Positions 1 through 54,502 of a stretch of 64,000 nucleotides of DNA are shown one piece after another. A program made the position numbers and the translations under genes. Origin of the DNA: Pristiophorus japonicus (lineage: Eukaryota); contig NC_091979.1 of the NCBI RefSeq assembly GCF_044704955.1, positions 119,350,001 to 119,414,000 on the forward strand, given 5' to 3'. Position 1 is the stretch's first letter, and each line of letters opens with the position of its first letter. The notes under the pieces are model-generated. The model was not told the origin of the DNA and made no database searches. It saw nothing but the letters and a program-made list of their open reading frames with translations.

Positions 1-1393
1 GGATCAGGGCAAGGTCGAAAAAAAAGGGGAATACTGGAAACACTAGGCACGGGTTATGACGATGAATTCCATAGGCCTGTAGACAATATACGACCGGGTT
101 AACAACTTAATGGCGTAGTCTTGAGTGGTTTAGTGGGGAGGGACTTGGATAACCTTGGAGGGGACTTGGGAGATGGTGCGGAAGGGGATCTGTTACAAGT
201 GGCCCATATATTGCCGAAATGCCAAGACAATAAAATTGATCCACGAAATGGGGAACGACATAAGTAAACGATTGTAGGCTGAGATAGTTTGCTCCGGGTA
301 TGGGGCCTGGATATTAAGTGAGGTACAACATAATTTGGAGCAACTCCAGAATGGAGACATACCAGATTGGATTCCGAACAGCATACTTAACAATTGGACT
401 CTAGATAAAAAAAAATGAATAACACATGCGAGGTACGAAGGAATAGTCACGCATGGGTGACAAAATTCAGATGTATTACTGGGCGGGTGAATATGATCGG
501 ATTTATGTTGTCCATACCACAGTATGATGTAACAAAGGGAGACCCCTTATATCTGATCGATAATATTGGTGAGGAGAGAAACCAAACTTGGTTACGTTAC
601 CATCAGCCTGCCAGACGGGTGATTAAAATTAACAATAGTACCAAAGGCATTGATATAACTGACTGCTATAAAATTAACCAAGTGGTTTTATGTCGAGGTA
701 CGCCACGAATGACGAATGATGATTGCAGATTCCATCAAACAAACGGATGCATGCTGAGTATCACTCCTCTCGAACACGATCTTGAGACCATCGCTGCCCC
801 GCAAGGGAACGGAGAGTGATGCGTGACCACGGGGGCAGCCAACTTAACCATTAAGACCAGGGGAGGAGTCACCCCGTGTCCTCATTACTCCGAACTTCTG
901 CTTCAGACCCAAGGGAGAAATAGACATAGACGGATATCATGTACATCCCGAGACAACGGAAATCATCGACGGAACAATCACGGATTCTCTCCGAGAAGGG
1001 TACGAAGAGGCGGTATGGGAACCGCAAGGCAAACAGATACCGGAACTAAATGAGGAACAAATACGTTTGGTGCAAGGAATCCAGAATCAAAGACGACAAT
1101 ATGTCCGGCTGATGGAAGAAATAGACAACTTACAGAGAGACACTAACGCAATGCTGGCTGATCAGCCCCGATACTCAAAGCTGTGGGACATTGGACTTAA
1201 TATTCAAATTCACCCATGGATAAGAATATCACATGTACTTGTAGTAATACAGGGTCTGGTTCTGATGGTCATGATGGGATTAACATGTGCACGAATTAAA
1301 CAGGCCAAACGATAAGTCAGGGCATGCACTATGATTAAGGCCATAAGGGATGAAAATTTAAGCAGTCCAACAGGAAGGACTCACCTTATATAA
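1..1393 (+). pseudogene. env: Decayed env / class I fusion glycoprotein gene of an LTR retroelement (5' part outside window)
   Basis: Frame 1 begins GSGQG-RKKR-GILETLGTGY (furin site plus fusion-peptide-like segment). After frameshifts and stops: MNSIGL*TIYDRVNNL; IVCSGYGAWILSEVQHNLEQLQNGDIPDWI; Cys-rich ORF 415-819 with N-glycosylation sequons; heptad QYVRLMEEIDNLQRDTNAML; TM ISHVLVVIQGLVLMVMMGLTC. Stop at 1315 with 25 further open codons to 1393. Lies just upstream of a PPT and LTR. Confidence 0.8.
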
Positions 1394-1833
1394 TTCTGTG
1401 GGAAGGTTTCAGGAGGTCCCGAAGCATGGGAGATGGCCACCCAGGTGAACGAACCTATCTGGAACTTGCCTACAGGGAGATAGTTATTGGGAAATATGGT
1501 CAGCTTGGCGTATAGCCAAGGGCCAAAAGGGGGGAAATGAAAGAGAAAAATTTGGCATTAGGGGTACCAGTGAGACAAGGGTTAAAGCGCTGGTTCCTGC
1601 ACTGGCCCACAAGGAGGTAAAAGACTTCTCTTCGGCCTTGTACCAAGGCTCCAGAAGTTATCAACTCAAAAATATTCCGACAGGATACGATGTGAGAACC
1701 TAAACAGACATTGATAAGACCTTGCGAAGAGGCTCGAGGCGGACTCACAGACAACAAGGAGGATCAGGAAAGCGAATGCGCACGGCTGAACGCGATACTC
1801 CTGGAATAAGCACCAGGGTTATCATGGAATGAT

Positions 1834-1845
1834 AAAAGGGGGGAA
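1834..1845 (+). other. Polypurine tract of the env-bearing LTR element
   Basis: AAAAGGGGGGAA immediately followed by TG at 1846. Confidence 0.8.
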
Positions 1846-2476
1846 TGAGAATGTGTAAAAGGGTTGCTAAAGTGGTAGATGGCTAAAGAAGGTGGCAAAA
1901 GGATGGAGATAGGGAATCATGGGAAAATAGCTAAAGAAATGGTCAAGATACAGACAACTGCAGAATCAACAGGAAAAAAAAGGGGTTACCAAGAGTTGAA
2001 GTAGAGGTTAGACACGGGTCATGAGAAAGCCCAAGGCAGCACAAAGAAAGAAAGCAATTCTAGATAGGAAGGGTAAAGTGATAGCTTCTACTGATAAGGA
2101 GGAAGAGAAACTAATTGGGTTCTTTACTGATAAGGGAAGACAGTGTAGCAAAGCTATAACTAACCTACCTGACACCAGCCCTAATTGGGAGACTTTCTTG
2201 CCTGCCATTGGACGTACTCGGGGGGGAGGCAGAAAGGGATTGGATAGACCAAGTGCTAATCAAATGTGTTCTGCTTTGAAAATGTATATCTACTGTGTTT
2301 TTCGCGCTGAAAAGGAGCTTGTCCAGGGGAAGGTAAGCAGACTCTGATTGAGAGTGTTCCTTTGTCTTGACAAGTCCCGGCCGGGGAATCTTCAATAAAG
2401 GTCCTTTACAGAAAAGGCAAGGTGTTCGCGTCAGTATATTCGCTGAAACAGATTGAGGGAAAAAGAATCCGTATCA
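1846..2476 (+). mobile_element. 3' LTR (~630 bp) of the env-bearing element
   Basis: Starts TGAGA after the PPT; internal direct repeats (TACTGATAAGG near 2089 and 2126); AATAAA at 2394-2399; ends TATCA at 2476 (alternative CA end at 2479), where CR1 sequence begins abruptly. Confidence 0.7.
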
Positions 2477-3107
2477 ACATTGCAAACGGGATGGAGCATA
2501 AGAGCAGGGAAGTCTTGTTACAGTTGTACAGGTTATTGGTGAGGCCACACCTGGAATACTGCGTGCAGTTTTGGTTTCCATATTTATGAAAGGATATACT
2601 TGCTTTGGAGGCAGTTCAGAGAAGGTTCACAAGGTTGATTCCAGAGATGAGGGAGTTGACTTATGAGGAAAGGTTGAGTAGGTTGGGCCTCTACTCATTG
2701 GAATTCAGAAGAATGAGAGGTGATCTTATCGAAACATATAAGATTATGACGGGGCTTGACAAGGTGGATGCAGAGAGGATGTTTCCGCTGATAGGGGAGT
2801 CTAGAACTAGAGGGCATAATTTTAGAATAAGGGACCGCCCATTTAAAATTGAGATGAGGAGAAATTTCTTCTCTCAGAAGGTTGTGGATCTGTGGAATTC
2901 GCAGCTCCAGAGAGCTGTGGAAGCTGGGACATTGAATAAATGTAAGACAGAAATAGAGAGTTTCTTAAACGATAAGGGAATAAGGGGTTATGGAGAGCGG
3001 GCAGGGAAGTGGACCTCAGTCCATGATCGGATCAGTCATGATTGTATTAAATGGCGGCGCAGGCTCCAGGGGCCGTATGGCCTACTCCTGCTCCTTGTTC
3101 TTATGTT
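2477..3107 (+). mobile_element. CR1-type LINE, 3' fragment (ORF2 C-terminus and tail)
   Basis: ORF 2605 EAVQRRFTRLIP..YEERLSRLGLYSLEFRRMRGDLIETYKI..RRNFFSQKVV is typical CR1 ORF2 C-terminus; tail CCTACTCCTGCTCCTTGTTCTTATGTT. Confidence 0.92.
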
Positions 3108-5091: not shown

Positions 5092-5325
5092 TGTCATGTA
5101 TTCAACCAGCATTGTAACCCATGTATAATCTGACCCAAGTTGTACACTGTGAGCACAATGACCACTAGGTGGGAGACACTCCTAACCTGGACCTGCAGGT
5201 ATAAAAGAGGAAGCTCCACCCACCTTCATCACTTGAGTGCTAAGGAATAAAGGACAGGTCACAGATTGACCTTCTCTCAAGCATGGGCCTCGTGTGCATT
5301 TATACTGTATAGTAAGGACGTATCA
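5092..5325 (+). repeat. 5' LTR of Gypsy element
   Basis: TGTCATGTA...GTATCA; contains TATAAAA and AATAAA; matches 8956-9189. Confidence 0.97.
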
Positions 5326-5326
5326 A

Positions 5327-5336
5327 TGGCGACGAG
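5327..5336 (+). other. Primer binding site, probably tRNA-Ser(GCU)
   Basis: TGGCGACGAG one base after the LTR; complementary to the CUCGUCGCCA 3' end recalled for tRNA-Ser(GCU). Confidence 0.75.
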
Positions 5337-5361
5337 AAACTGGGATTTAAACCACGCGAGC

Positions 5362-8300
5362 ATGGCCACTAGCAGAACAGACGACAGGTACTGTGTTACG
5401 GAATGGTTGGGACAGAGATTCATCATTGTTAAAGCAGCACACAGTTCTCCAGGCAGACAAGGGTAGTCGGGCATGCCCCAACATGTAGTCGAACCCAGAG
5501 GGGGAGTTCGACAGAGACAATGGCAAGCTGAACAGCGATTCACGCCATTGTAAGGGACAATGCGGCCAGAAATGGGGCCATCAACACCTGTTAATGGCGC
5601 ATTCAAGGACAGTCACAGGGGCAGTCAGGAACGATCGACTGGCAAGGGACCTTTTGTTTCAAACAACAGCTCATGTTGGAGGCGTGGAGGCACACACTCA
5701 GCGGAGTTTGCAGAGATGAGCAAAATACCTGCAGAAATGAACGCTGGGGGAAATCGCTGAAAGCTGAAGTTCAGCGAGTTCATGTGAGCACGTATACAGT
5801 TCATACACCAGGACGCCACAGATAATGATGGAAGTGCTCCTCAATGGCATCCCAGTATCAATGGAGGTAGACACGGGGGCCAGCCAGTCCCTAATGGGTA
5901 TCAAACAGTTCGAAAAGTTGTGGGCGCCCAAGGCCAGGAGGCCAAAATTATCGCCGATTGACGCACAGCTACGGACATACACAAAGGAGATCATTCCGGT
6001 GCTAGGCAGCGCCATGGTAGTCGTGACCCACAAAGATTCAGAGAACAGGTTGCCACTCTGGATTGTCCCAGGGGACGGTCCCACACTACTGGTGAGGAGT
6101 TGGCTTGCTGTCATGAACTGGAAATGGGGCGCTGTCAATGCAATTTCTTCTGTGGAGTGAGTATCATGCTCACAGATCCTGGACAAATTTGACTCATTAT
6201 TTCAACCCAGCATCAGCACTTTCATGGGGGCCAAGGTAGTGATTCACATAAGCCCGGACGCCAGGCCAGTACACCACAAGGCCAGAGCGGTGCCGTACGT
6301 GATGCGGGAAAAGATAGAAGGCGAATTGGACCGCCTGCTGAGGGAAGCATCATCTCGCCAGTCAAATTCAGTGACTAGGCGAGCCCGATCGTGCCAGTGC
6401 TCAAGGCGGATGGGTCGGTCAGGATATGTGGCGATTACAAGGCTACCATCAATCGGGTGTCACTCCAAGACCAGTACCCGCTACCGAGAGCGGAGGACCT
6501 CTTTGCAACGGTATCCGGTGGCAAACTTTTTTCAAAATTGGACCTGACCTCAGCTTACTTGACCCAGGAGCTGACGAGTGAGTCGAAGAAGCTGACCACC
6601 ATCACAACACACAAGGGGTTGTTTGAGTATAACAGATATCCATTCGGGATTCGCTCGGCCGCCGCAATCTTCCAACGAAATATGGAAAGTCTCCTCAAGT
6701 CGATTCCAGGGACGGTGGTTTTTCAGGACGACATCCTCATCACGGGTTACGATACTGAAGAACACCTCCACAACCTGGAGGAGGTGCTACGCAGACTGGA
6801 CCGGGTAGGGCTGCGACTAAAAAAGGCGAAGTGAGTCTTCCTAGCTCCAGAGGTAGAATTCCTGGGGATGAGGGTAGCAGCAGACGGGATCAGCCTTACT
6901 GCGTCCAAATCGGAAGCGATCCAGAGAGCACCCAGACCCCATAACACGACGGAGCTACATTTGTTCCTGGGGCTCCTGAACTATTTTGGTAACTTTCTTC
7001 CCAAATTGAGCACGCTGCTAGAGCCGCTACACGTGCTCCTACGCAAAGGTCGCGAATGGGCCTGGGGGGACAGCCAGGAAAGGGCTTTTAATAGAGCACG
7101 CAATTTATGTTCCAACTATACGACCCATGTAAGAAACTTGTGTTAACGTGCGATGCGTCGTCCTATGGTGTCGGGTGTGTGTTGCAGCATGTCAATGTCA
7201 AGGGTCAGTTACAGCTGGTAGCTTATGCCTCTAGGAGTCTGCCCCAGGCAGAAAGGGGTTACGGAATGGTAGAAAAGAAGGCGCTTGCATGTGTATATGC
7301 TGTAAAGAAAATGCACCAGTACCTGTTTGGCAGGAAATTTGAGCTGGAGACAGATCACAAACCCCTAACGTCCCTTTTGGCCAACAACAAGGCCATTAAT
7401 GCAAATGCAAACGCATCGGCCCGCATACAGAGGTGGGCACTCACGTTAGCCGCCGATGACTATACAATTCGGCACAGATCGGGCACCGAAAACTGCGTCG
7501 ATGCACTCAGCAGGCTCCCACTAGCCACCATTGAGGGGGCTACCGAGCATGCTGCTGAGATGGTCATGGCTGTTGAAGCTTTCGGAAGCGAAGGCTCACC
7601 CGTGACAGCCCGTCAGATTAAAGTCTTGACAAATAGAAACCCGCTATTGTCTCTAGTCAAGAAATGTGTCCTGAATGGGAACTGGCTAGCCACGTACAGC
7701 CCTGAGGAATTTAAACCATTTCACAGGCGCAGGGATGAACTCTCGATTCAGGCAGATTGCCTACTGTGGGGAAACCGCGTAGTCATGCCCCAGATGGGCA
7801 GAGAGGTGTTCATCAGAGAACTCCACAATGAGCACCCGGGCATTGTCATGATGAAGGCAATTGCCAGGTCACACGTTTGGTGGCCAGGGATAGACGCAGA
7901 TCTGGAACTTTGTGTTCGCAGGTGCAACACGTGTGCCCAGCTGGGCAATGCGCCCAGGGAAGCCCCCTTTAGCCCCTGGCCATGGCCCGCCAAGCCTTGG
8001 TCACGCATCCATGTGGACTACGCAGGTCCTTTCATGAAAAAAATGTTTTTGGTTGTAGTAGCCGCCTACTCCAAATGGATCGAGTGTGTCATTTTAAATT
8101 CAAGCACAGCCTCTGCCACGGTAGAAAGTCTACGGGCAATGTTCGCCGCCCACAGTCTACCGGACGTCTTGGTCAGCGACAATGGCCCATGCTTCACAAG
8201 CACTGAATTCCAGGACTTCATGGCAGGCAATGGAATTAACCATGTCAGAACGGCACCGTTCAAGCCGGCCTCAAACGGCCAGGCAGAATGAGCAGTGCAG

Positions 8301-8924
8301 ATAATCAAACAGGGGATGCTCAGAATACAAGGGGGTTCCCTACAAACTCGCTTATCAAGCCTCCTGTTGGCCTATAGATCCCGACCACACTCACTCACAG
8401 GAGTTCCACCCGGAGAGCTGCTAATGAAAAGGACGCTCAAAACCTGGCTATTCCTTATACACCCCACCATGAAAGAAACTGTCGAGAGCAGGCGCCAGCC
8501 ACAATATGACTACCATGACAGGAATGCGAGGGCGCGATGTATTGATGTAAATGATCCTGTTTTTGTCCTCAACTACGCTGCAGGGCCCAAATGGCTCGCA
8601 GGCACTGTGATTGCCAAAGAGGGAAATAGGATTCTGGTAGTTAAACTTACCAATGGACAAATCTGCCGCAAACACGTGGATCAAACAAAAAGGAGGTTCA
8701 GCAACTCCATAGAAGAAGCAGAGGAAGAACACGATGTCGAGTTCACTCCACCAGAGGTGACCGAACACCGGAACCAAAGGGAGGAGAGCCCAATCACTGT
8801 GGGCAGTCTGGATAGGCCTGAGGCACCGCAAACAGCAGACACTCAGGCCAGCGCCCAACAACCGGAGCCCCAACTCAGGCGCTCTACAAGAGAGCGTAAA
8901 CCACCAGAGAGACTCAATCTGTGA
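5362..8924 (+). pseudogene. Disrupted gag-pol (gag remnant, protease, RT, RNase H, integrase)
   Basis: Gag start MATSRTDDRYC; decayed knuckle CWRRGGTHSA; protease VDTGAS; RT RICGDYK..LDL..PFG..FQDD; RNase H LTCDAS..TDHKPL; integrase H..H..C..C, IHVDYAGP, SDNGP, NGQAE; several stops and frameshifts. Confidence 0.93.
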
Positions 8925-8955
8925 TCCCAATAAGACTTTGGGGGGGGGGAGGTGA

Positions 8956-9189
8956 TGTCATGTAGTCAACCAGCATTGTAACCCATGTATAATCTGACCT
9001 AAGTTGTACACTGTGAGAACAATGACCACTAGGTGGGAGACACTCCTAACCTGGACCTTCAGGTATAAAAGGGGAAGCTCCACCCACCTTCATCACTTGA
9101 GTGCTAAGGAATAGAGGACAGGTCACAGACTGACCTTCTCTCAAGCATGGGCCTCGTGTGCATTTATACTATATAGTAAGGACGTATCA
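8956..9189 (+). repeat. 3' LTR of Gypsy element
   Basis: Copy of 5092-5325; poly(A) hexamer changed to AATAGA. Confidence 0.97.
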
Positions 9190-38272: not shown

Positions 38273-38299
38273 AGTACTTAGTTTGCAGTGGGTCGTGAT

Positions 38300-38987
38300 A
38301 TGACAGCTTCTCTTCTTTCAGCCCCTTGGAGGACTGATACAATCAGGTACCTACACAACAGAAACAACACAACTAACTCGGAGATGGAAGGACTGGGAGG
38401 GAACGTCCCTTCAAATCAATGCAGGAATTTTCTGTCTCCCTCTGCATTTGGAGCTCATCACAACTCTTTATCTTCGGGTCCTGCTTACTCCGTCGGAGAG
38501 CGAACGCATTCTGTCATTTCTGAATCTGCTAAGCAGTGCAGCCCATGTCCAGCTCCTACAAGCCCTCCAAACCCAGCGATCAGTTACGGCTATCATTTTG
38601 GAAGCAGCTATTACAGTTGTCGAAATGTTGGCATTCAACAAACTGGACTGAAATCTGGTGCTCATGCATCTCTAGCCGGTTATCCAGTGGACAAATACAT
38701 GGACGTTTCGGGTTTGACTAACACTCCTGTCCCCACTGACGAAGTGTCATCCAGGGCAAAAGAATTTGCTTTTTATCAGAGCTACCCCAATCCATACCAA
38801 CGGGTCTCTGGTTATTTGGACGTCCCAGTAGTCCCTACAATAAGCGGCCACGGGGAGCCAAGGCATGAAGCCTTAATATCCATGGACGGCTATCAGCCTT
38901 GGACATTTGCTAATGGCTGGAACGGTCAAGTGTATTGCCCCAAAGATCAGACACAGACTTCACATTTTTGGAAATCGCCACTTTCAG
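38300..38987 (+). CDS. hoxd13: HoxD13 exon 1 (alternative start at 38384)
   Basis: [66 protein letters not shown]; donor AG|GTATCA. Confidence 0.96.
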
Positions 38988-39355
38988 GTATCATGAAATA
39001 TTTTTAACTGAGAAACGTTACGCTCATTTGAAATATAACGCAAACAAAATAAATCCACTGTCGTTTGGTTTAATCTTGAAGGAAATTCTCTCGTCTTTCA
39101 ATTTACAATATTTCAAACGAATAATACATGGAACACAGAACAAACATGTATCAAAATTAATGCGCTGAAATGTGCGATTGACCGTACGCCTAAATATCTT
39201 AATTGAGTTGCTAAATGTATATTTTAATAGCCAGAGGTATGGGTTGTCATTTTTCCTTTTAATGTTTCATCTACCGCCTTCGTTTTCTTTTTAACGTCAT
39301 TTGAACTGCTACTGTTTGAAGTTTACATTATTATAATTTGCGTTTTCCCCCTCAG

Positions 39356-42295: not shown

Positions 42296-45075
42296 CCTAC
42301 TGTAAAACATGAAGCAACATAGTTGTTACAACCGAAGGACAAGATGGTCGTTCGTACTTTACGCTGCAAACCAGTGCCAGAAGTATTATTTAGGCTTTAA
42401 ATCCAAGAGCTTATTGATAGGTTGTACTGACAACTTAGACAGCAGCATTGCCTATGTTGCAAGAAATGCACGATAAAGTAAGTCTTTCAACCCAAGCAAT
42501 GCGAAGGCCAATGTTCAACGTGTTAATAATTTGAGGTTTAATATTTGACATCATTTAAATTTAGCGTCTTTTCACGAATTTATACACCACGTTGCATTTT
42601 CTACATGTTGGATCGATTTTGTGTTCACATCCAGGATAACCAAGCACAGCCCGGGATTGGTGTTCTATTGTGAATAAAGACTGTAAGCATTAGCTTTTCT
42701 GTAGCGATAGTTTCTAAGAAATATGTGACAGCTAAATTGCTCGATTGTAGTTTTCTTCAGGACATTTTTATATAAGTTACGATAGAATTTCATAAACAGT
42801 GTTTAAATGTTAACCGTGATCGAATGAGAGTTTTGTGAGAACGTCACGAGCAATAAAGCAGCGTTTGTTGTGGTAAGTGTAAAACGATGATTCTTTACCC
42901 GATTTCATTCTTGGCTACATTAGTTCTAATGCAAACCTCAGTTGTGGCCGATGTGATACTGATTTCAAATTGAAGTGGCTCTTCATACGAAAGCACATTT
43001 CGCACTAAAACTAAGTTAACATCTTTTCTAAAAAAAATATGGCGATTTGATCTCATTCGACCTTGGCCTTGAACTGAGCTACAGTTTAATTTCTTGGAGT
43101 CATTTCGAGCTTTTACAAGAAATGTTAGGTAGAGATCCGCTTTCGGTTAAGCCCTTTGTTCGCAATTGCGTTTGGATTTTAATGTCTTACTAAAGGGCAT
43201 GGTGATCATAAAAGGGACAGAGGAGAAATAGTGTTTTTTTTTTCCGGTGAGGATGTGGTGGCGGTCTCTGCTTTGATTTTACTGCACATGATTTTAACTT
43301 AAAGGGCCAATTCGTGTTATATTGTAAATAGATAAATATATACATTAGAAAACAAGGTCAATTGTTAAATTATAGACCGCCAATTATTAACAGTGTAAAC
43401 CCCCAAAAATAATATATTACATTTCTGCAGTTGATGCGACGCTAAAATAAATCGTGTTGTTACCTTAGGAGTTCTGCGTGAATTTTAATTATCTAAAGTC
43501 ATATTTGGACTCAGAATTAGTTCCATAATTCGAAAGGTAGACTCATTGCATTGAATTTTATTCCATTTGCTTTGCTATCGATAAACTTTAGTACTATTAG
43601 TTAAAATGTTAAATGGATAACAGCCACTTTAATGTTTTAATCATTGATTATAGTTAATAGATCGTGCATAGGTCTGTAAATTATGTCTAAAATAAGTGAC
43701 TAGAAATTCTAAAGTTAGCAAATGCAAGAGAGTGAGTCGTTTCTTTTGGCTTTGACACCAGCGTTGCAAATATTGGCCTTCATTCCAATAGTCTTGTTTC
43801 AACATTTGCTTTGTCTAAGTATGGATGAGGGTTTGCGGTGCTCTAATGACGGACAGCATTCTTAGGAAATCTTAAGTTTTTTTTAACAAAATCTTACGGT
43901 CTAATACGACCAATCTACTGGATTTTACTGAAATGTACGCGTTATAAACACATACAACCGAATTTAACCCCAATATTTTCGCATGGAGCGGCACATGTTA
44001 AACACAACAGAACTGCGCAACATTATTCTAATCCAACGTGGACAGACTAAGACATGGGCCATTTTCGTTTCCACCTAATAATGCATAGTACGCTTCATTG
44101 TAACAAACTTACTGAAATTTGTTATAAAGTTAACTTAGATAATTGAATTGAACGACAAATATTCAGGACATTACAGTAAACGCAATGCTGCTGTAGAGCA
44201 TTGTTTAATTTTATGAATGCGTATTTTTTTTGCTACAAGTCGAAATGTGGTTTAGAGCAATGTATTCAGTATATTAGCTGACTTATTCGATTTTTTTAAA
44301 ACGTCCCTCAATTAATTAGACACGGGATATAATTTCTAACCCCTTTAGATAATTTGCACCAACATTCACGTGTTTGGTTTATTTGTCTTTTTCGTTAACA
44401 AAATGAAATAAAATAGCGTACCTGATTTAAATATAAATGTGCTTCTCGTAGAAGTTAGTACTGCCCAAAAATATCCGTTAATATATAGCTAAAAGTAATG
44501 CGTTGAAATATAAAAAGTCTCCCGACATTTTTAATGACCATGTTACATTTTTATTCGACCTGATTAGAAGTTACGAATTATCATCAGTTAAAATAATGTA
44601 TTATCTCTGCTATTGCATCATATCGGAGTTAGGTATTTGGTTTTCAAGAATTATTGAAACTGTGTTGAATTGGTCAAGGGAACACATGAGCATTTCAGAT
44701 ATTTAAGGTTTATTAATCAATGATAACCTGTAACTAATGGAGCGGTTAGTGGCTGTAGTGTGTGAAATATTTGGAGATCTATTGAAGCTATATGCCCAAT
44801 TTATTACGTTATAACAATTTTTCTGAGCTATATATGCATCCTGTTGACTTCAGCGAGTTGCGAGCCGTTAGCAGTCTTGAGTGGGATGAAGGTGCACATG
44901 GACGTGGACTTGGACATTTCAGATGTGAATTGTATTGGGACGGAGGCGGTGCCAGAAAAAAAGCTGCTTCCGCTTGTCTTGTGACTCTCTCGGAGCCAAT
45001 CGGCGAGCGCCTTTCGTTTATCTCTGTCTGGAAGCTAAATAAGGGACAGAGAAGATCTGATCGCGCTCCTCGGAA

Positions 45076-45655
45076 ATGTGCGAGCACAATCTGCTAAATT
45101 CAGGCTATGTCGGCTCCCTGTTAAATTTTACCAGCCCGGAGCCCTTCTACTTCCCCAACCTGCGTCCGAATGGGGCTCAATTGGCAACTCTGTCGCCAGC
45201 ACTCTCCTATACCCGCAGGGAGGTGTGCTCGCTCCCGTGGACTTCGAGTCCATGCGCATCGCCGCCGCAGAGCCGCGCCTTCAGCGGCTACTCTCAGTCC
45301 TATCTCAGCAACTCAGTTTCCATCAGCATCAATAGGCACGGATCAGACAAGGCAGCAGCCGGCGAAGAACCTAACAAATACTACTTCCAAGACAGCAGCC
45401 GAAAACTGGAGGAGAGATGCAGACACAATCAATCTTATCCAAGTGATGCCAGCATCCCCTCTTCAGTCAACATCAATTCTGCCAAATACGAGTACCCAAA
45501 CGTGGAAACATCTCTGCATGGCTCGTCATTACATAACCAAGGCTTTGAATTGAATTCCAACTCTCCCACTGTAAATGAAGGCATCAAGCAATGTGTGAGC
45601 CTCAATATGTCATTACAGTCATCAGTAACGCCAGTATGCAACAGATCCTCCGATG
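45076..45655 (+). CDS. hoxd12: HoxD12 exon 1
   Basis: MCEHNLLNSGYVGSLLNFTSPEPFYFPNLRPNGAQLA; donor ATG|GTATAG. Confidence 0.97.
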
Positions 45656-46393
45656 GTATAGTATCAGTCTAATATTAAAGCGATGATCAACCCTCCTTTA
45701 CCAAAGTGCTACCTGTCACCTTCACGTGAATTTCATATTTTGAACATCAAACAATGATCCCGGAACACTTGCGCTTATTGCAACCAGAACCATCAGGAAA
45801 ATAATAATTGTAATTACAAAAATGATTAGGACGAGATAATGAAACAATGAAACTGAAAGCATGGTAGCAGTCCCTGTGTGATAGCTGGAATTACTTTAAA
45901 TAACAAGTCAAATTGCAGCGTTAATTACTTCCGTTTAAGTTCTAGCTAGCATTTAAATAATTAAGAAATGGTAACTGTTTCCTAAATTTTTCGCCATTTT
46001 ATTAAAAAGCCAATATTTCAGGGCGATTCCTTTGTTCGGATTTATTAATGGGCGAGTTTTCTGCGGCAACCACTACAGAATATTGAGATACTTGAATGCC
46101 TTATTTAACTATTTTATTTGTGCAATTTGGCTAGCTTCTCCTGTCACGTAATAGTATACCAGTGATGTTCTTTACTTATAAAGACCTAGGGTCACAAAAT
46201 AGAGAATGTAATATTGTTTTGTCGAAGTTTCAATATAATTTCTAAAAAAGAGCAACAGTATGAACCCTGCAATGTCAACAAAGTTATTATCTAAATTAAC
46301 AAAGCACATTGAAAATTTTAATCATTTGGGGATGGAAGGGATGGTGAAATATTTCAATTACTTCAGCCTTTTTTTCTCAATTTTGATTTGCAG

Positions 46394-53230: not shown

Positions 53231-53336
53231 TTTTTCTTTCGCGGACCCCGTTCATACGCCTTTAGAGTAGAATAGATGGAGCATGTTTAACGCCATCAAT
53301 CCTGATAATTCGTCCTCGCAACCCCGAAAACAAAAC

Positions 53337-53940
53337 ATGACTGAGTTTGAAGAACGCAGTAGCTGCACCTCGAGTATGTATCTACCCAACTGCACGTACT
53401 ATGTTTCAGCCCCAGATTTCTCGTCAGTGTCAACGTTTTTACCGCAGACCACTTCTTGCCAAATGACATTTCCTTATTCCTCTAATTTAGCCCCGGTTCA
53501 ACCTGTCCGAGAAGTGTCGTTCAGAGATTACGGGTTAGAACATCCGACTAAGTGGCATTACAGGGGCAACTTTGCTCCTTATTGCTCTGCAGAAGAAATA
53601 ATGCATAGGGACTATATCCAGCCTCCGACCAGGACGGGAATGTTGTTTAAAAATGATACTGTATACAGTCAGCGTGGAAGCTCAAATCCATCTTGCAATT
53701 TCTACACCACAGTTGGCAGGAATGGAATACTTCCTCAAGGTTTTGATCAATTTTTTGATAGAGCCTATGGGATTTCTGACTCTTCTAATTATGAACAGTT
53801 GACCGAAAAGTCTTTGTCTACGTGCCAGGGTATCACAGCATCTGATAAAGTTTCTTCCGGCCAGGAGAAAGAAAGTACAATCGAAAAGAGCACCGTCGAG
53901 TCCTCCGGTAACAGTGCGGCCGAGAAAAGCAGCCTATCCA
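53337..53940 (+). CDS. hoxd11: HoxD11 exon 1
   Basis: [59 protein letters not shown]; donor A|GTAGGT. Confidence 0.96.
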
Positions 53941-54502
53941 GTAGGTGCAGTCGTAACGCGGGGTTAGGATACAGGGCCAACACATTTTGTCTCACAAATT
54001 TTATGTGAAATTTTATAAGCAGATGAAGGATTTTATATACCCTATAAGATCTGCTTTAAAGTTGTAAAGGTTGTTTACGATGGGAAATCAGTTTAGGTGG
54101 GCTTTTTGAATATGCCAAAGCACGAATAGTCGATTTTAACTTTCTGCGATGATTTCAGTAATGTCATTGCAATTTGATGGAAGGGTATTTCCGTTTCTAT
54201 TCATTGCAAATACTTTTCGTTCATACCAACAAGGCAAGATTTAATTGATGTTTTATTCTGCTGTTGTTGCTTTCAATATGTATATAAACAAAACAAACTT
54301 AGTAATAGAAAATGCATTCAAATGTATTCATTAAAACATTTTATTAAGCAATAAATAGTGCTATCAGGGTATATTAGAAGAGTCAATCCTGAATTTTTTT
54401 TTGCATCATTTCACGTTTAGTTTAACTAAATACAAGAAATTAAGAAGACATCTGTTGATACATGATAATGTGTAACAATATCTTTTAACATATTTCCATC
54501 AG

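What the first reader, a model, noticed from the sequence alone, without database searches (positions are those of the whole stretch)
1..2476. LTR element with an F-protein-like env: candidate lokiretrovirus-like endogenous virus in a shark
Seen: furin site RKKR plus GILETLGTG at nt 16-54, then about 400 codons of ectodomain (helical segment ending L..GDIPDWI, GFMLSIP..LYLIDNIG, clustered Cys, heptad) before a TM at ~1226, followed by a PPT and LTR. I see no gamma-type immunosuppressive/CX6CC motif. Established: gamma/epsilon retroviral TM ectodomains are far shorter; a long Cys-rich post-cleavage ectodomain fits paramyxo/pneumovirus F, baculovirus-F/errantivirus env, or foamy env. Lokiretroviruses are vertebrate elements with Mononegavirales-like env; from memory they were reported in lampreys, bony fishes, amphibians and reptiles, not cartilaginous fishes. 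Inference: this is a chondrichthyan member of that group or another env-capturing lineage.
Basis: partly seen in the sequence, partly recalled or inferred. Interest (0 to 1): 0.75.

Follow-up and report, generated by a model that had tools for sequence, protein, structure and literature searches.

The report
Chimeric shark retrovirus with F-type envelope
This is the broken tail of a multi-copy shark retroviral element that lacks its own replication genes; its envelope piece is predicted to fold like the fusion proteins of RSV-type viruses and was likely picked up by recombination from a snakehead-retrovirus-like family rather than a lokiretrovirus, which suggests that this kind of envelope is old and widespread among aquatic retroviruses.

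Summary
Observation confirmed; lokiretrovirus reading refuted. Window 1-2479 is the 3' end of a 7.9-kb LTR element with no detectable gag or pol; 35 of 39 fetched relatives share its layout. Its env is a broken, 5'-truncated copy (88% identical) of the env of an autonomous gag-pol-env family in the same genome. That Env is predicted to fold like pneumo/paramyxovirus F and foamy Env (Foldseek E 1e-6; top 14 VIA rows). But the donor RT nests inside retroviruses, in the class III/snakehead-retrovirus (SnRV)-like grade; grouping with Loki is rejected (p-AU 0.003), with foamy less firmly (0.025). SnRV Env itself aligns to this env family (HHalign 83-88%; control 1.8%). LTR, Leu primer site, 4-bp target duplication and a gamma-type env tail come from a class I epsilon-like family, and a second F-type env remnant lies upstream: the element is a three-family mosaic. 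Two env stops are shared by 34 of 37 and 34 of 36 copies, so env was dead before the family spread. SnRV-like shark ERVs are published, with gamma-type env; I found no paper on this F-type env. The scan noted similar F-type shark ERVs before in other genomes.

The parts
1..15 (+). End of the surface-subunit remnant of the captured env (continues upstream of the window; about the first 197 residues of the donor Env are missing)
   Evidence: tblastn of an open donor Env frame against the upstream locus
16..54 (+). Furin-type site RKKR and start of the predicted fusion peptide GILETLGTG
   Evidence: sequence; aligned with R-X-K-R sites of 30 homologues
28..1225 (+). Broken F1-like ectodomain: long N-terminal helices, Cys-rich beta domains, C-terminal heptad (1049-1168); frameshifts near 58, 115, 220, 410 and 875, stops near 277 and 817
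   Evidence: 88% identity to a donor copy; fold of the donor's open frame; lesions counted
1226..1288 (+). Predicted transmembrane helix
   Evidence: sequence; helix in model
1289..1393 (+). Short cytoplasmic tail, interrupted by a stop near 1313
1525..1642 (+). Polypurine tract and first ~105 bases of the donor (family B) LTR, carried along with env
   Evidence: alignment to donor copies L074 and L058 runs to 1633-1642 and 1544-1642 also matches their 5' LTR
1754..1809 (+). Last codons of the gamma-type env of the epsilon-like backbone (family E)
   Evidence: window 1754-1855 is 89% identical to the env tail, PPT and LTR start of family E copy L104
1831..1845 (+). Functional polypurine tract of the element, identical to that of family E
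1846..2479 (+). 3' LTR (TG...CA, AATAAA at 2394-2399); R-U5 end 75-86% identical to family E LTRs; K2P distance to its 5' LTR 0.018
2480..2483 (+). 4-bp target-site duplication TTGC
2484..3070 (+). Flank: 3' part of a LINE into which the element inserted (reading continues across the insertion; CR1-type label recalled)

Best explanation
The window holds the 3' end of a gag-less, pol-less LTR element whose broken env, predicted to be an F-type fusion protein, was likely captured by recombination from a class III (snakehead-retrovirus-like) shark retrovirus and then likely copied around the genome as dead cargo by the enzymes of an epsilon-like helper. Shown: the layout LTR - Leu primer site - AT-rich leader - deleted F-type env of family A - 5'-truncated F-type env of family B with B's PPT and LTR start - tail of family E's gamma-type env - PPT - LTR. 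Shown: family B is an autonomous gag-pro-RT-tether-RNaseH-IN-env family with its own LTR, Ser primer site and mostly 5-bp target duplications; family E is class I with TLV_coat env, the same primer site and PPT as the window element and 4-bp duplications. Inferred: a ~2-kb piece of a family B genome entered the last codons of a family E env (one copy, L048, still shows E integrase, E env and the B piece in this order), most simply by template switching between co-packaged RNAs; further deletion and exchange removed gag-pol. Inferred: in the donor virus Env is cut by furin at R-X-K-R and the F1-like subunit refolds its two heptad regions into a hairpin to fuse membranes, as pneumovirus F and foamy Env do, with the ~270-residue N-terminal subunit as the likely receptor-binding part.
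For: Layout shared by 35 of 39 fetched relatives; no tblastn match at E<=0.001 of family A gag or pol, or of three family E gag/pol frames, to the element. Donor family: 22 copies fetched, domains by Pfam. Fold: core model pLDDT 77.5; all 31 listed Foldseek rows (of 65 at E<=0.001) and the top 14 VIA rows (Z 6.3-8.4, 216-234 of 246 residues) are pneumo/paramyxovirus F or foamy Env. RT tree of 60 rows: families A and B inside retroviruses (99/94, 96/90), outside class I; family E inside class I (100/99). Backbone identity. TSD 4 bp in 9 of 16 scored copies and never 5 bp, against 5 bp in 7 of 13 family B copies. Primer sites match tRNA-Leu and tRNA-Ser 3' ends in the genome. Shared stops: 34 of 37 and 34 of 36 copies, against 1 of 20 and 0 of 20 donor copies. 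dN/dS 0.19-0.28 between window and donor frames shows selection on env before capture.
Against: The class III part of the tree is unresolved: A and B are not sister to SnRV itself (p-AU 0.046) and a broad SnRV-like clade is only not rejected (p-AU 0.26). Structural matches have TM-scores 0.38-0.45 and rmsd 7-12 A, and the whole-subunit model has pTM 0.29. SnRV Env homology is clear by HHalign but weak by HMMER (5.6-6.3 bits, no better than gamma-type env controls) and BLAST (E 0.014). 4 of 13 family B copies show only a 4-bp duplication and 7 of 16 window-family copies none, so TSD length is not a clean marker. Only the R-U5 end and first ~235 leader bases match family E closely; an autonomous helper with the exact LTR was not found among 12 family E copies fetched. 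No fusion or mobilisation was observed.
Confidence: 0.8

Rival explanations
1. A chondrichthyan lokiretrovirus.
For: F-like Env with RXKR, fusion peptide, coiled coil and TM as described for Loki; tether plus RNase H in the donor pol.
Against: All 22 Loki RT rows read in the supplement have P-F-G where families A and B have P-Q-G-F-H-N-S-P; tree and AU test reject the grouping, p 0.003; a natural Loki RT finds at best 40% identity among 144 scored places in this genome and the exact Loki motif finds 0; the one Loki Env seen in the supplement has its cleavage site about 100 residues from the start, against about 270 here. The dual RNase H is common to all retroviruses.
Confidence: 0.03
2. A divergent foamy-like ERV of cartilaginous fish.
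For: Best PDB sequence hit of the donor RT is foamy RT (84 bits, MLV 60, HIV 47); foamy Env is the top Foldseek hit of the core model; cartilaginous-fish foamy ERVs are published (cited, paper not held).
Against: AU test rejects grouping with the two mammalian foamy RTs, p 0.025; Gag has two CCHC knuckles, no foamy-specific Pfam family matches Gag, Pol or Env; PPT follows env within about 130 bases, leaving no accessory genes. Fish foamy-like RTs were not in my tree.
Confidence: 0.07
3. The mosaic arose at the DNA level: a family B provirus inserted into the env tail of a family E provirus and later deletions trimmed both, with no RNA recombination.
For: Nested insertions are common here (a window-family copy sits in the pol of another ERV, L015); the captured piece keeps B's PPT and LTR start.
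Against: The piece begins inside env and ends inside the LTR, with no LTR end or target duplication at either junction, so two precise later deletions are needed.
Confidence: 0.25
4. The env remnant is kept because it helps the element (packaging or RNA signal, or a truncated protein).
For: It is retained nearly whole in 35 of 39 relatives.
Against: No signal peptide region, shared stops and frameshifts; LTR pairs are only 0.6-4.3% apart (26 pairs), so there has been little time to lose it; family E spreads without it.
Confidence: 0.1

Closest known systems
Snakehead retrovirus (SnRV) and SnRV-like / clade Huo (class III) ERVs (PMC12193657, PMC6001957, PMC4977317; passages read)
   Same: RT motifs of the same type; simple gag-pol-env order; SnRV Env aligns in order from the cleavage site through the Cys-rich core to the shark/frog env profile (HHalign 83% over 209 and 88% over 288 columns).
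   Different: RT only about 44% identical and not sister to SnRV; donor Env about 730 codons with a short tail against 1134 codons with a 136-residue tail; no 3' ORF between env and LTR.
CmiERV lineage I of the elephant shark (Han 2015, PMC4422223; whole text and supplement part 1 read)
   Same: Chondrichthyan ERV clustered with SnRV; same RT motif type; primer site identical to family A's.
   Different: Its env, read by eye from the supplement, is gamma-type (immunosuppressive domain and CX6CC), not F-type.
Lokiretroviruses (Wang & Han 2020, PMC7947760; parts 1-3 of 4 and supplement passages read)
   Same: Vertebrate LTR elements with an Env related to paramyxo/pneumovirus F, RXKR site, tether plus RNase H.
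   Different: Different RT clade and motifs; short region before the cleavage site; none in 6 chondrichthyan genomes screened.
Foamy virus Env and pneumo/paramyxovirus F (PMC11468914, abstract start and passages; PDB 8rm1, 8ozh, 5l1x, 9hvw)
   Same: Predicted fold of the fusion core.
   Different: 11-16% identity; no Pfam match; donor Gag and Pol are not foamy-type.
Class I epsilon-like fish ERVs with gamma-type env (Chen et al., 10.1101/2021.11.23.469661, part 1 of 6 read) and non-autonomous LTR elements
   Same: The backbone (LTR end, Leu primer site, PPT, 4-bp duplication, env tail) belongs to such a family; env exchange between lineages is described there.
   Different: The exchange here runs from class III to class I and involves an F-type env that was already broken when the family spread.

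Membership tests
Lokiretrovirus | RT in the clade sister to all other retroviruses | tested here: not met
   Three natural Loki-motif RTs form a 100/100 clade outside retroviruses; families A and B lie inside; p-AU 0.003
Lokiretrovirus | RT motif P-F-G seen in all Loki rows of the published alignment | tested here: not met
Lokiretrovirus | Env with RXKR, fusion peptide, coiled coil, TM and F-like core | tested here: met
Lokiretrovirus | Env sequence similarity to PF00523 | tested here: inconclusive
   no hmmscan match for donor frames or 30 of 32 homologues scanned; the fold matches
Lokiretrovirus | Tether plus second RNase H | tested here: met
   shared with all retroviruses, so not diagnostic
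Lokiretrovirus | Integrase related to CGIN1; direct Env homology to Loki Env | not tested
   no Loki env or labelled CGIN1 sequence could be fetched
Spumaretrovirinae / foamy-like ERVs | RT in the foamy clade | tested here: inconclusive
   rejected with two mammalian foamy RTs, p-AU 0.025; fish foamy-like RTs absent from the tree
Spumaretrovirinae / foamy-like ERVs | Gag without CCHC knuckles; accessory genes after env (features recalled) | tested here: not met
   two zf-CCHC in donor Gag; env runs almost directly into PPT and LTR
Spumaretrovirinae / foamy-like ERVs | F-like fusion core | tested here: met
   8rm1 E 1.1e-6, Z 7.2 over 223 residues
SnRV-like / clade Huo (class III) ERVs (env donor) | RT inside retroviruses, outside class I, class II and foamy, grouped with SnRV | tested here: inconclusive
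   inside retroviruses and outside class I; broad SnRV-like clade not rejected, p 0.26; exclusive pairing with SnRV rejected, p 0.046; no class II or named ERV-L/S rows in the tree
SnRV-like / clade Huo (class III) ERVs (env donor) | Env homologous to SnRV Env | tested here: met
   HHalign 83% and 88%, control 1.8%; weak by HMMER and BLAST
Class I epsilon-like ERV (backbone) | RT in the gamma/epsilon clade | tested here: met
   family E RT (L107) in the 100/99 class I clade with fish and reptile rows; the window element itself has no RT
Class I epsilon-like ERV (backbone) | Gamma-type env (TLV_coat, CX6CC) and MLV-type integrase C-terminus | tested here: met
   L048; only the env tail survives in the window
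Ty3/Gypsy errantivirus | Gypsy-clade RT with a single RNase H | tested here: not met

The most novel reading that the evidence does not exclude
The F-type fusogen is the ancestral retroviral envelope: it survives in lokiretroviruses, foamy viruses, snakehead retrovirus and an undescribed class III lineage of sharks, rays and frogs, and gamma-type env displaced it repeatedly. This shark genome records the traffic in progress, with young class III families bearing F-type env recombining with class I viruses to give a three-envelope mosaic element.
Probability: 0.35. Interest if true: 0.8.

Novelty: new variant of a known kind. Interest (0 to 1): 0.52.

Why it matters
Wang & Han left four scenarios open for where retroviral Env came from, because F-like Env was known only from Loki; foamy Env was later shown to be F-like. 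A third retroviral lineage with this fold, which appears to include the cultured, cloned snakehead retrovirus, shifts the balance towards an F-type ancestor and gives a direct structural test. It also shows that screens using gamma- or beta-type Env baits miss abundant shark ERV envelopes, and that class I and class III retroviruses exchange sequence in a shark germ line. The window copy itself is a dead passenger.

Tried and rejected
Pfam scans of window pieces, donor frames, 30 homologues and SnRV Env gave no viral fusion family above its cut-off (best: Baculo_F E 0.0011, 18 bits, on one homologue). PDB sequence searches with the env, single and as a profile, gave nothing meaningful. The word-indexed protein search found no env relative among 2816 candidates; only the full HMMER search did. 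The whole-subunit VIA search was filled by helices, hence the core-only model. The ESM Atlas could not read either query. I first took the region upstream of env for a gag remnant; it is a deleted second F-type env. I first suspected the ERV beside copy L015 was the helper; it shares no LTR or leader with the element and is only an insertion target. A Loki env could not be fetched for direct comparison, and no env relative could be sought in viral contigs with the alignment. Nine paper searches found no description of an F-type env on SnRV-like or shark class III ERVs; the library lacks most subscription papers, and two relevant ones were not held, while Calcraft et al. 2024 was seen only as a citation and may treat SnRV Env. 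No RNA data were examined.

Full report
Observation. The window lies in a 5.9-Gb genome; 40 of 40 scored places match window 400-1300 at 91-100%. The upstream stretch holds the 5' LTR (L013 2617-3249); the 3' LTR is window 1846-2479; they differ at 11 of 632 columns (K2P 0.018) and a 4-bp duplication flanks them. With the two rates used in Han 2015 (2.2e-9 and an assumed 2.2e-10 per site per year) the insertion is 4 to 40 million years old. In 26 sibling LTR pairs the distance is 0.006-0.043, median 0.025.

Anatomy of the element. I fetched all 39 other full-length hits. 35 map part for part onto the window element: LTR, primer site, AT-rich leader, about 1 kb that I first took for gag, env remnant, LTR. 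tblastn finds no gag or pol in it (family A gag and pol, three family E frames). Two hits (L053, L054) are a different, autonomous family, here B, with Gag bearing two CCHC knuckles, protease, RT, tether, RNase H, integrase and an env of about 730 codons; 20 more copies were fetched out of 40 scored. Window 12-1642 is 88% identical to family B from the cleavage site through env, its PPT and the first ~105 bases of its LTR; about the first 197 Env residues are absent. The supposed gag is a deleted piece of a second F-type env, family A. The LTR end, leader start, primer site and second PPT match a third family, E (12 copies fetched), whose RT is class I and whose env is gamma-type (TLV_coat); window 1754-1855 is 89% identical to the last codons of the E env, its PPT and LTR start. 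Copy L048 shows the intermediate: E integrase, E env, then the ~2-kb B piece set inside the E env tail. Target duplications are 4 bp in 9 of 16 scored window-family copies (none in 7, never 5 bp) and 5 bp in 7 of 13 family B copies (4 bp in 4, none in 2). The primer sites match tRNA ends in the genome, called Leu in 1 of 2 loci scanned and Ser in 1 of 2.

The env was dead before the family spread. The stops near 817 and 1313 are shared by 34 of 37 and 34 of 36 copies and by 1 of 20 and 0 of 20 donor copies; frameshifts near 220 and 875 are shared by 34 of 36 and 29 of 37. Between window pieces and three donor frames dN/dS is 0.19-0.28, so env was under selection on the donor side.

What the env is. 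Pfam and PDB sequence searches gave nothing. phmmer of a naturally open donor frame over 1.84 billion proteins gave 32 hits; of 26 looked up, 24 are named: 21 from sharks and a skate, 3 from frogs. The model of the cleaved subunit (pLDDT 60.6, pTM 0.29) matches hMPV F (E 7.8e-8), RSV F, foamy Env and measles F; all 31 listed rows are of these kinds; predicted viral structures add chuvirus, baculovirus and mononegavirus glycoproteins. The core-only model (pLDDT 77.5, pTM 0.53) gives foamy Env E 1.1e-6 and hMPV F E 8e-6 (TM 0.38-0.45), and the top 14 VIA rows, Z 6.3-8.4 over 216-234 of 246 residues at rmsd 7.7-12 A, are all F proteins or foamy Env, with unrelated helices below Z 5.7. That it fuses membranes as F does is inferred from fold and motifs.

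Which virus. The Loki RT rows of Wang & Han all show P-F-G at the motif where families A and B, SnRV and other retroviruses have P-Q-G. A scan with the Loki motif gave three natural contigs as anchors. Protein P0100 is SnRV Pol: it carries the SnRV motifs and is 99% identical to a 10,688-base record, the length given for SnRV in PMC12193657. In a 60-row, 264-column RT tree Loki is sister to all retroviruses, as published; A and B form a clade with three shark or unnamed rows (98/98) inside retroviruses, outside class I, in an unresolved grade with SnRV, foamy and fish or amphibian rows. AU tests reject A+B with Loki (p 0.003), with foamy (0.025) and with SnRV alone (0.046), and do not reject a broad SnRV-like clade (0.26). 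The tree lacks class II, named ERV-L/S and fish foamy-like rows. A Loki RT finds at most 40% identity among 144 scored places in this genome, the exact motif none; this is a lower bound, not proof of absence. SnRV Env aligns in order to the env profiles (HHalign 83% and 88%, E 9e-6 and 3e-6) while a gamma-type env does not (1.8%); HMMER scores it above 200 shuffles but no higher than gamma-type controls, and BLAST gives E 0.014.

Comparison with print. SnRV-like ERVs are known in a chondrichthyan (Han 2015, whole text), but that element's env, read by eye in the supplement, is gamma-type. F-like Env is published for Loki, where 0 of 6 chondrichthyan genomes were positive, and for foamy viruses. 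Surveys of anamniote Env used gamma- and beta-type baits (passages of PMC12690878). Passages of PMC11521997, PMC4977317, PMC6001957, 10.1101/2023.10.26.564294 and 10.1101/2024.03.17.585361 do not describe this env. Nine searches found no paper on it; two papers were not held, the Loki supplement is cut, and bioRxiv supplements were not seen. Earlier notes of this scan reached the same reading for other shark genomes; they are not independent support, and their Ig-like domain claim was not tested here. No note matched this sequence or this mosaic family.

Verdict. Real feature; not a lokiretrovirus; a dead F-type env of a class III, SnRV-like shark retrovirus carried in a class I-derived non-autonomous element. 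New variant of a known kind; interest 0.52.

Noticed in passing
window 21728-22357 (-), 38282-39007, 45061-45672, 53271-54008: Open frames that read like Evx and posterior Hox exons (names by eye, recalled): the element lies about 19 kb beyond the Evx end of a Hox cluster.
   Followed up: no
window 5092-9189: A second LTR element with a 97% identical LTR pair and RNase H/integrase-like frames, Gypsy-like by eye.
   Followed up: no
L013 6892-7925; also L023, L030, L036, L039, L042, L019: A ~1-kb element with terminal inverted repeats sits at the same env junction in 6 of 40 copies, in both orientations, and just after the 5' LTR in 2: a likely insertion hot spot.
   Followed up: partly
family A loci fetched: A second class III family with F-type env (about 31% identical to family B Env core) is very young: LTR pairs 99-100% identical in 4 of 5 autonomous copies examined, some with unbroken frames.
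   Followed up: partly
L048: One copy carries a class I integrase, a gamma-type env and the F-type env piece in a row: two envelope types in one element.
   Followed up: yes
L092-L095: Pol-less elements with family A-type LTR ends and env share the AT-rich leader with the window element and with family E derivatives: the leader moves between families.
   Followed up: partly
L015 7561-9860 and L055: An ERV whose RT groups with clupeiform fish rows next to class I and has a gamma-type env; a window-family copy inserted into its pol.
   Followed up: partly
G000:C8 around 174.41-174.56 Mb: A long tandem array with a ~1.76-kb period that contains a tRNA-Leu-type 3' end.
   Followed up: no
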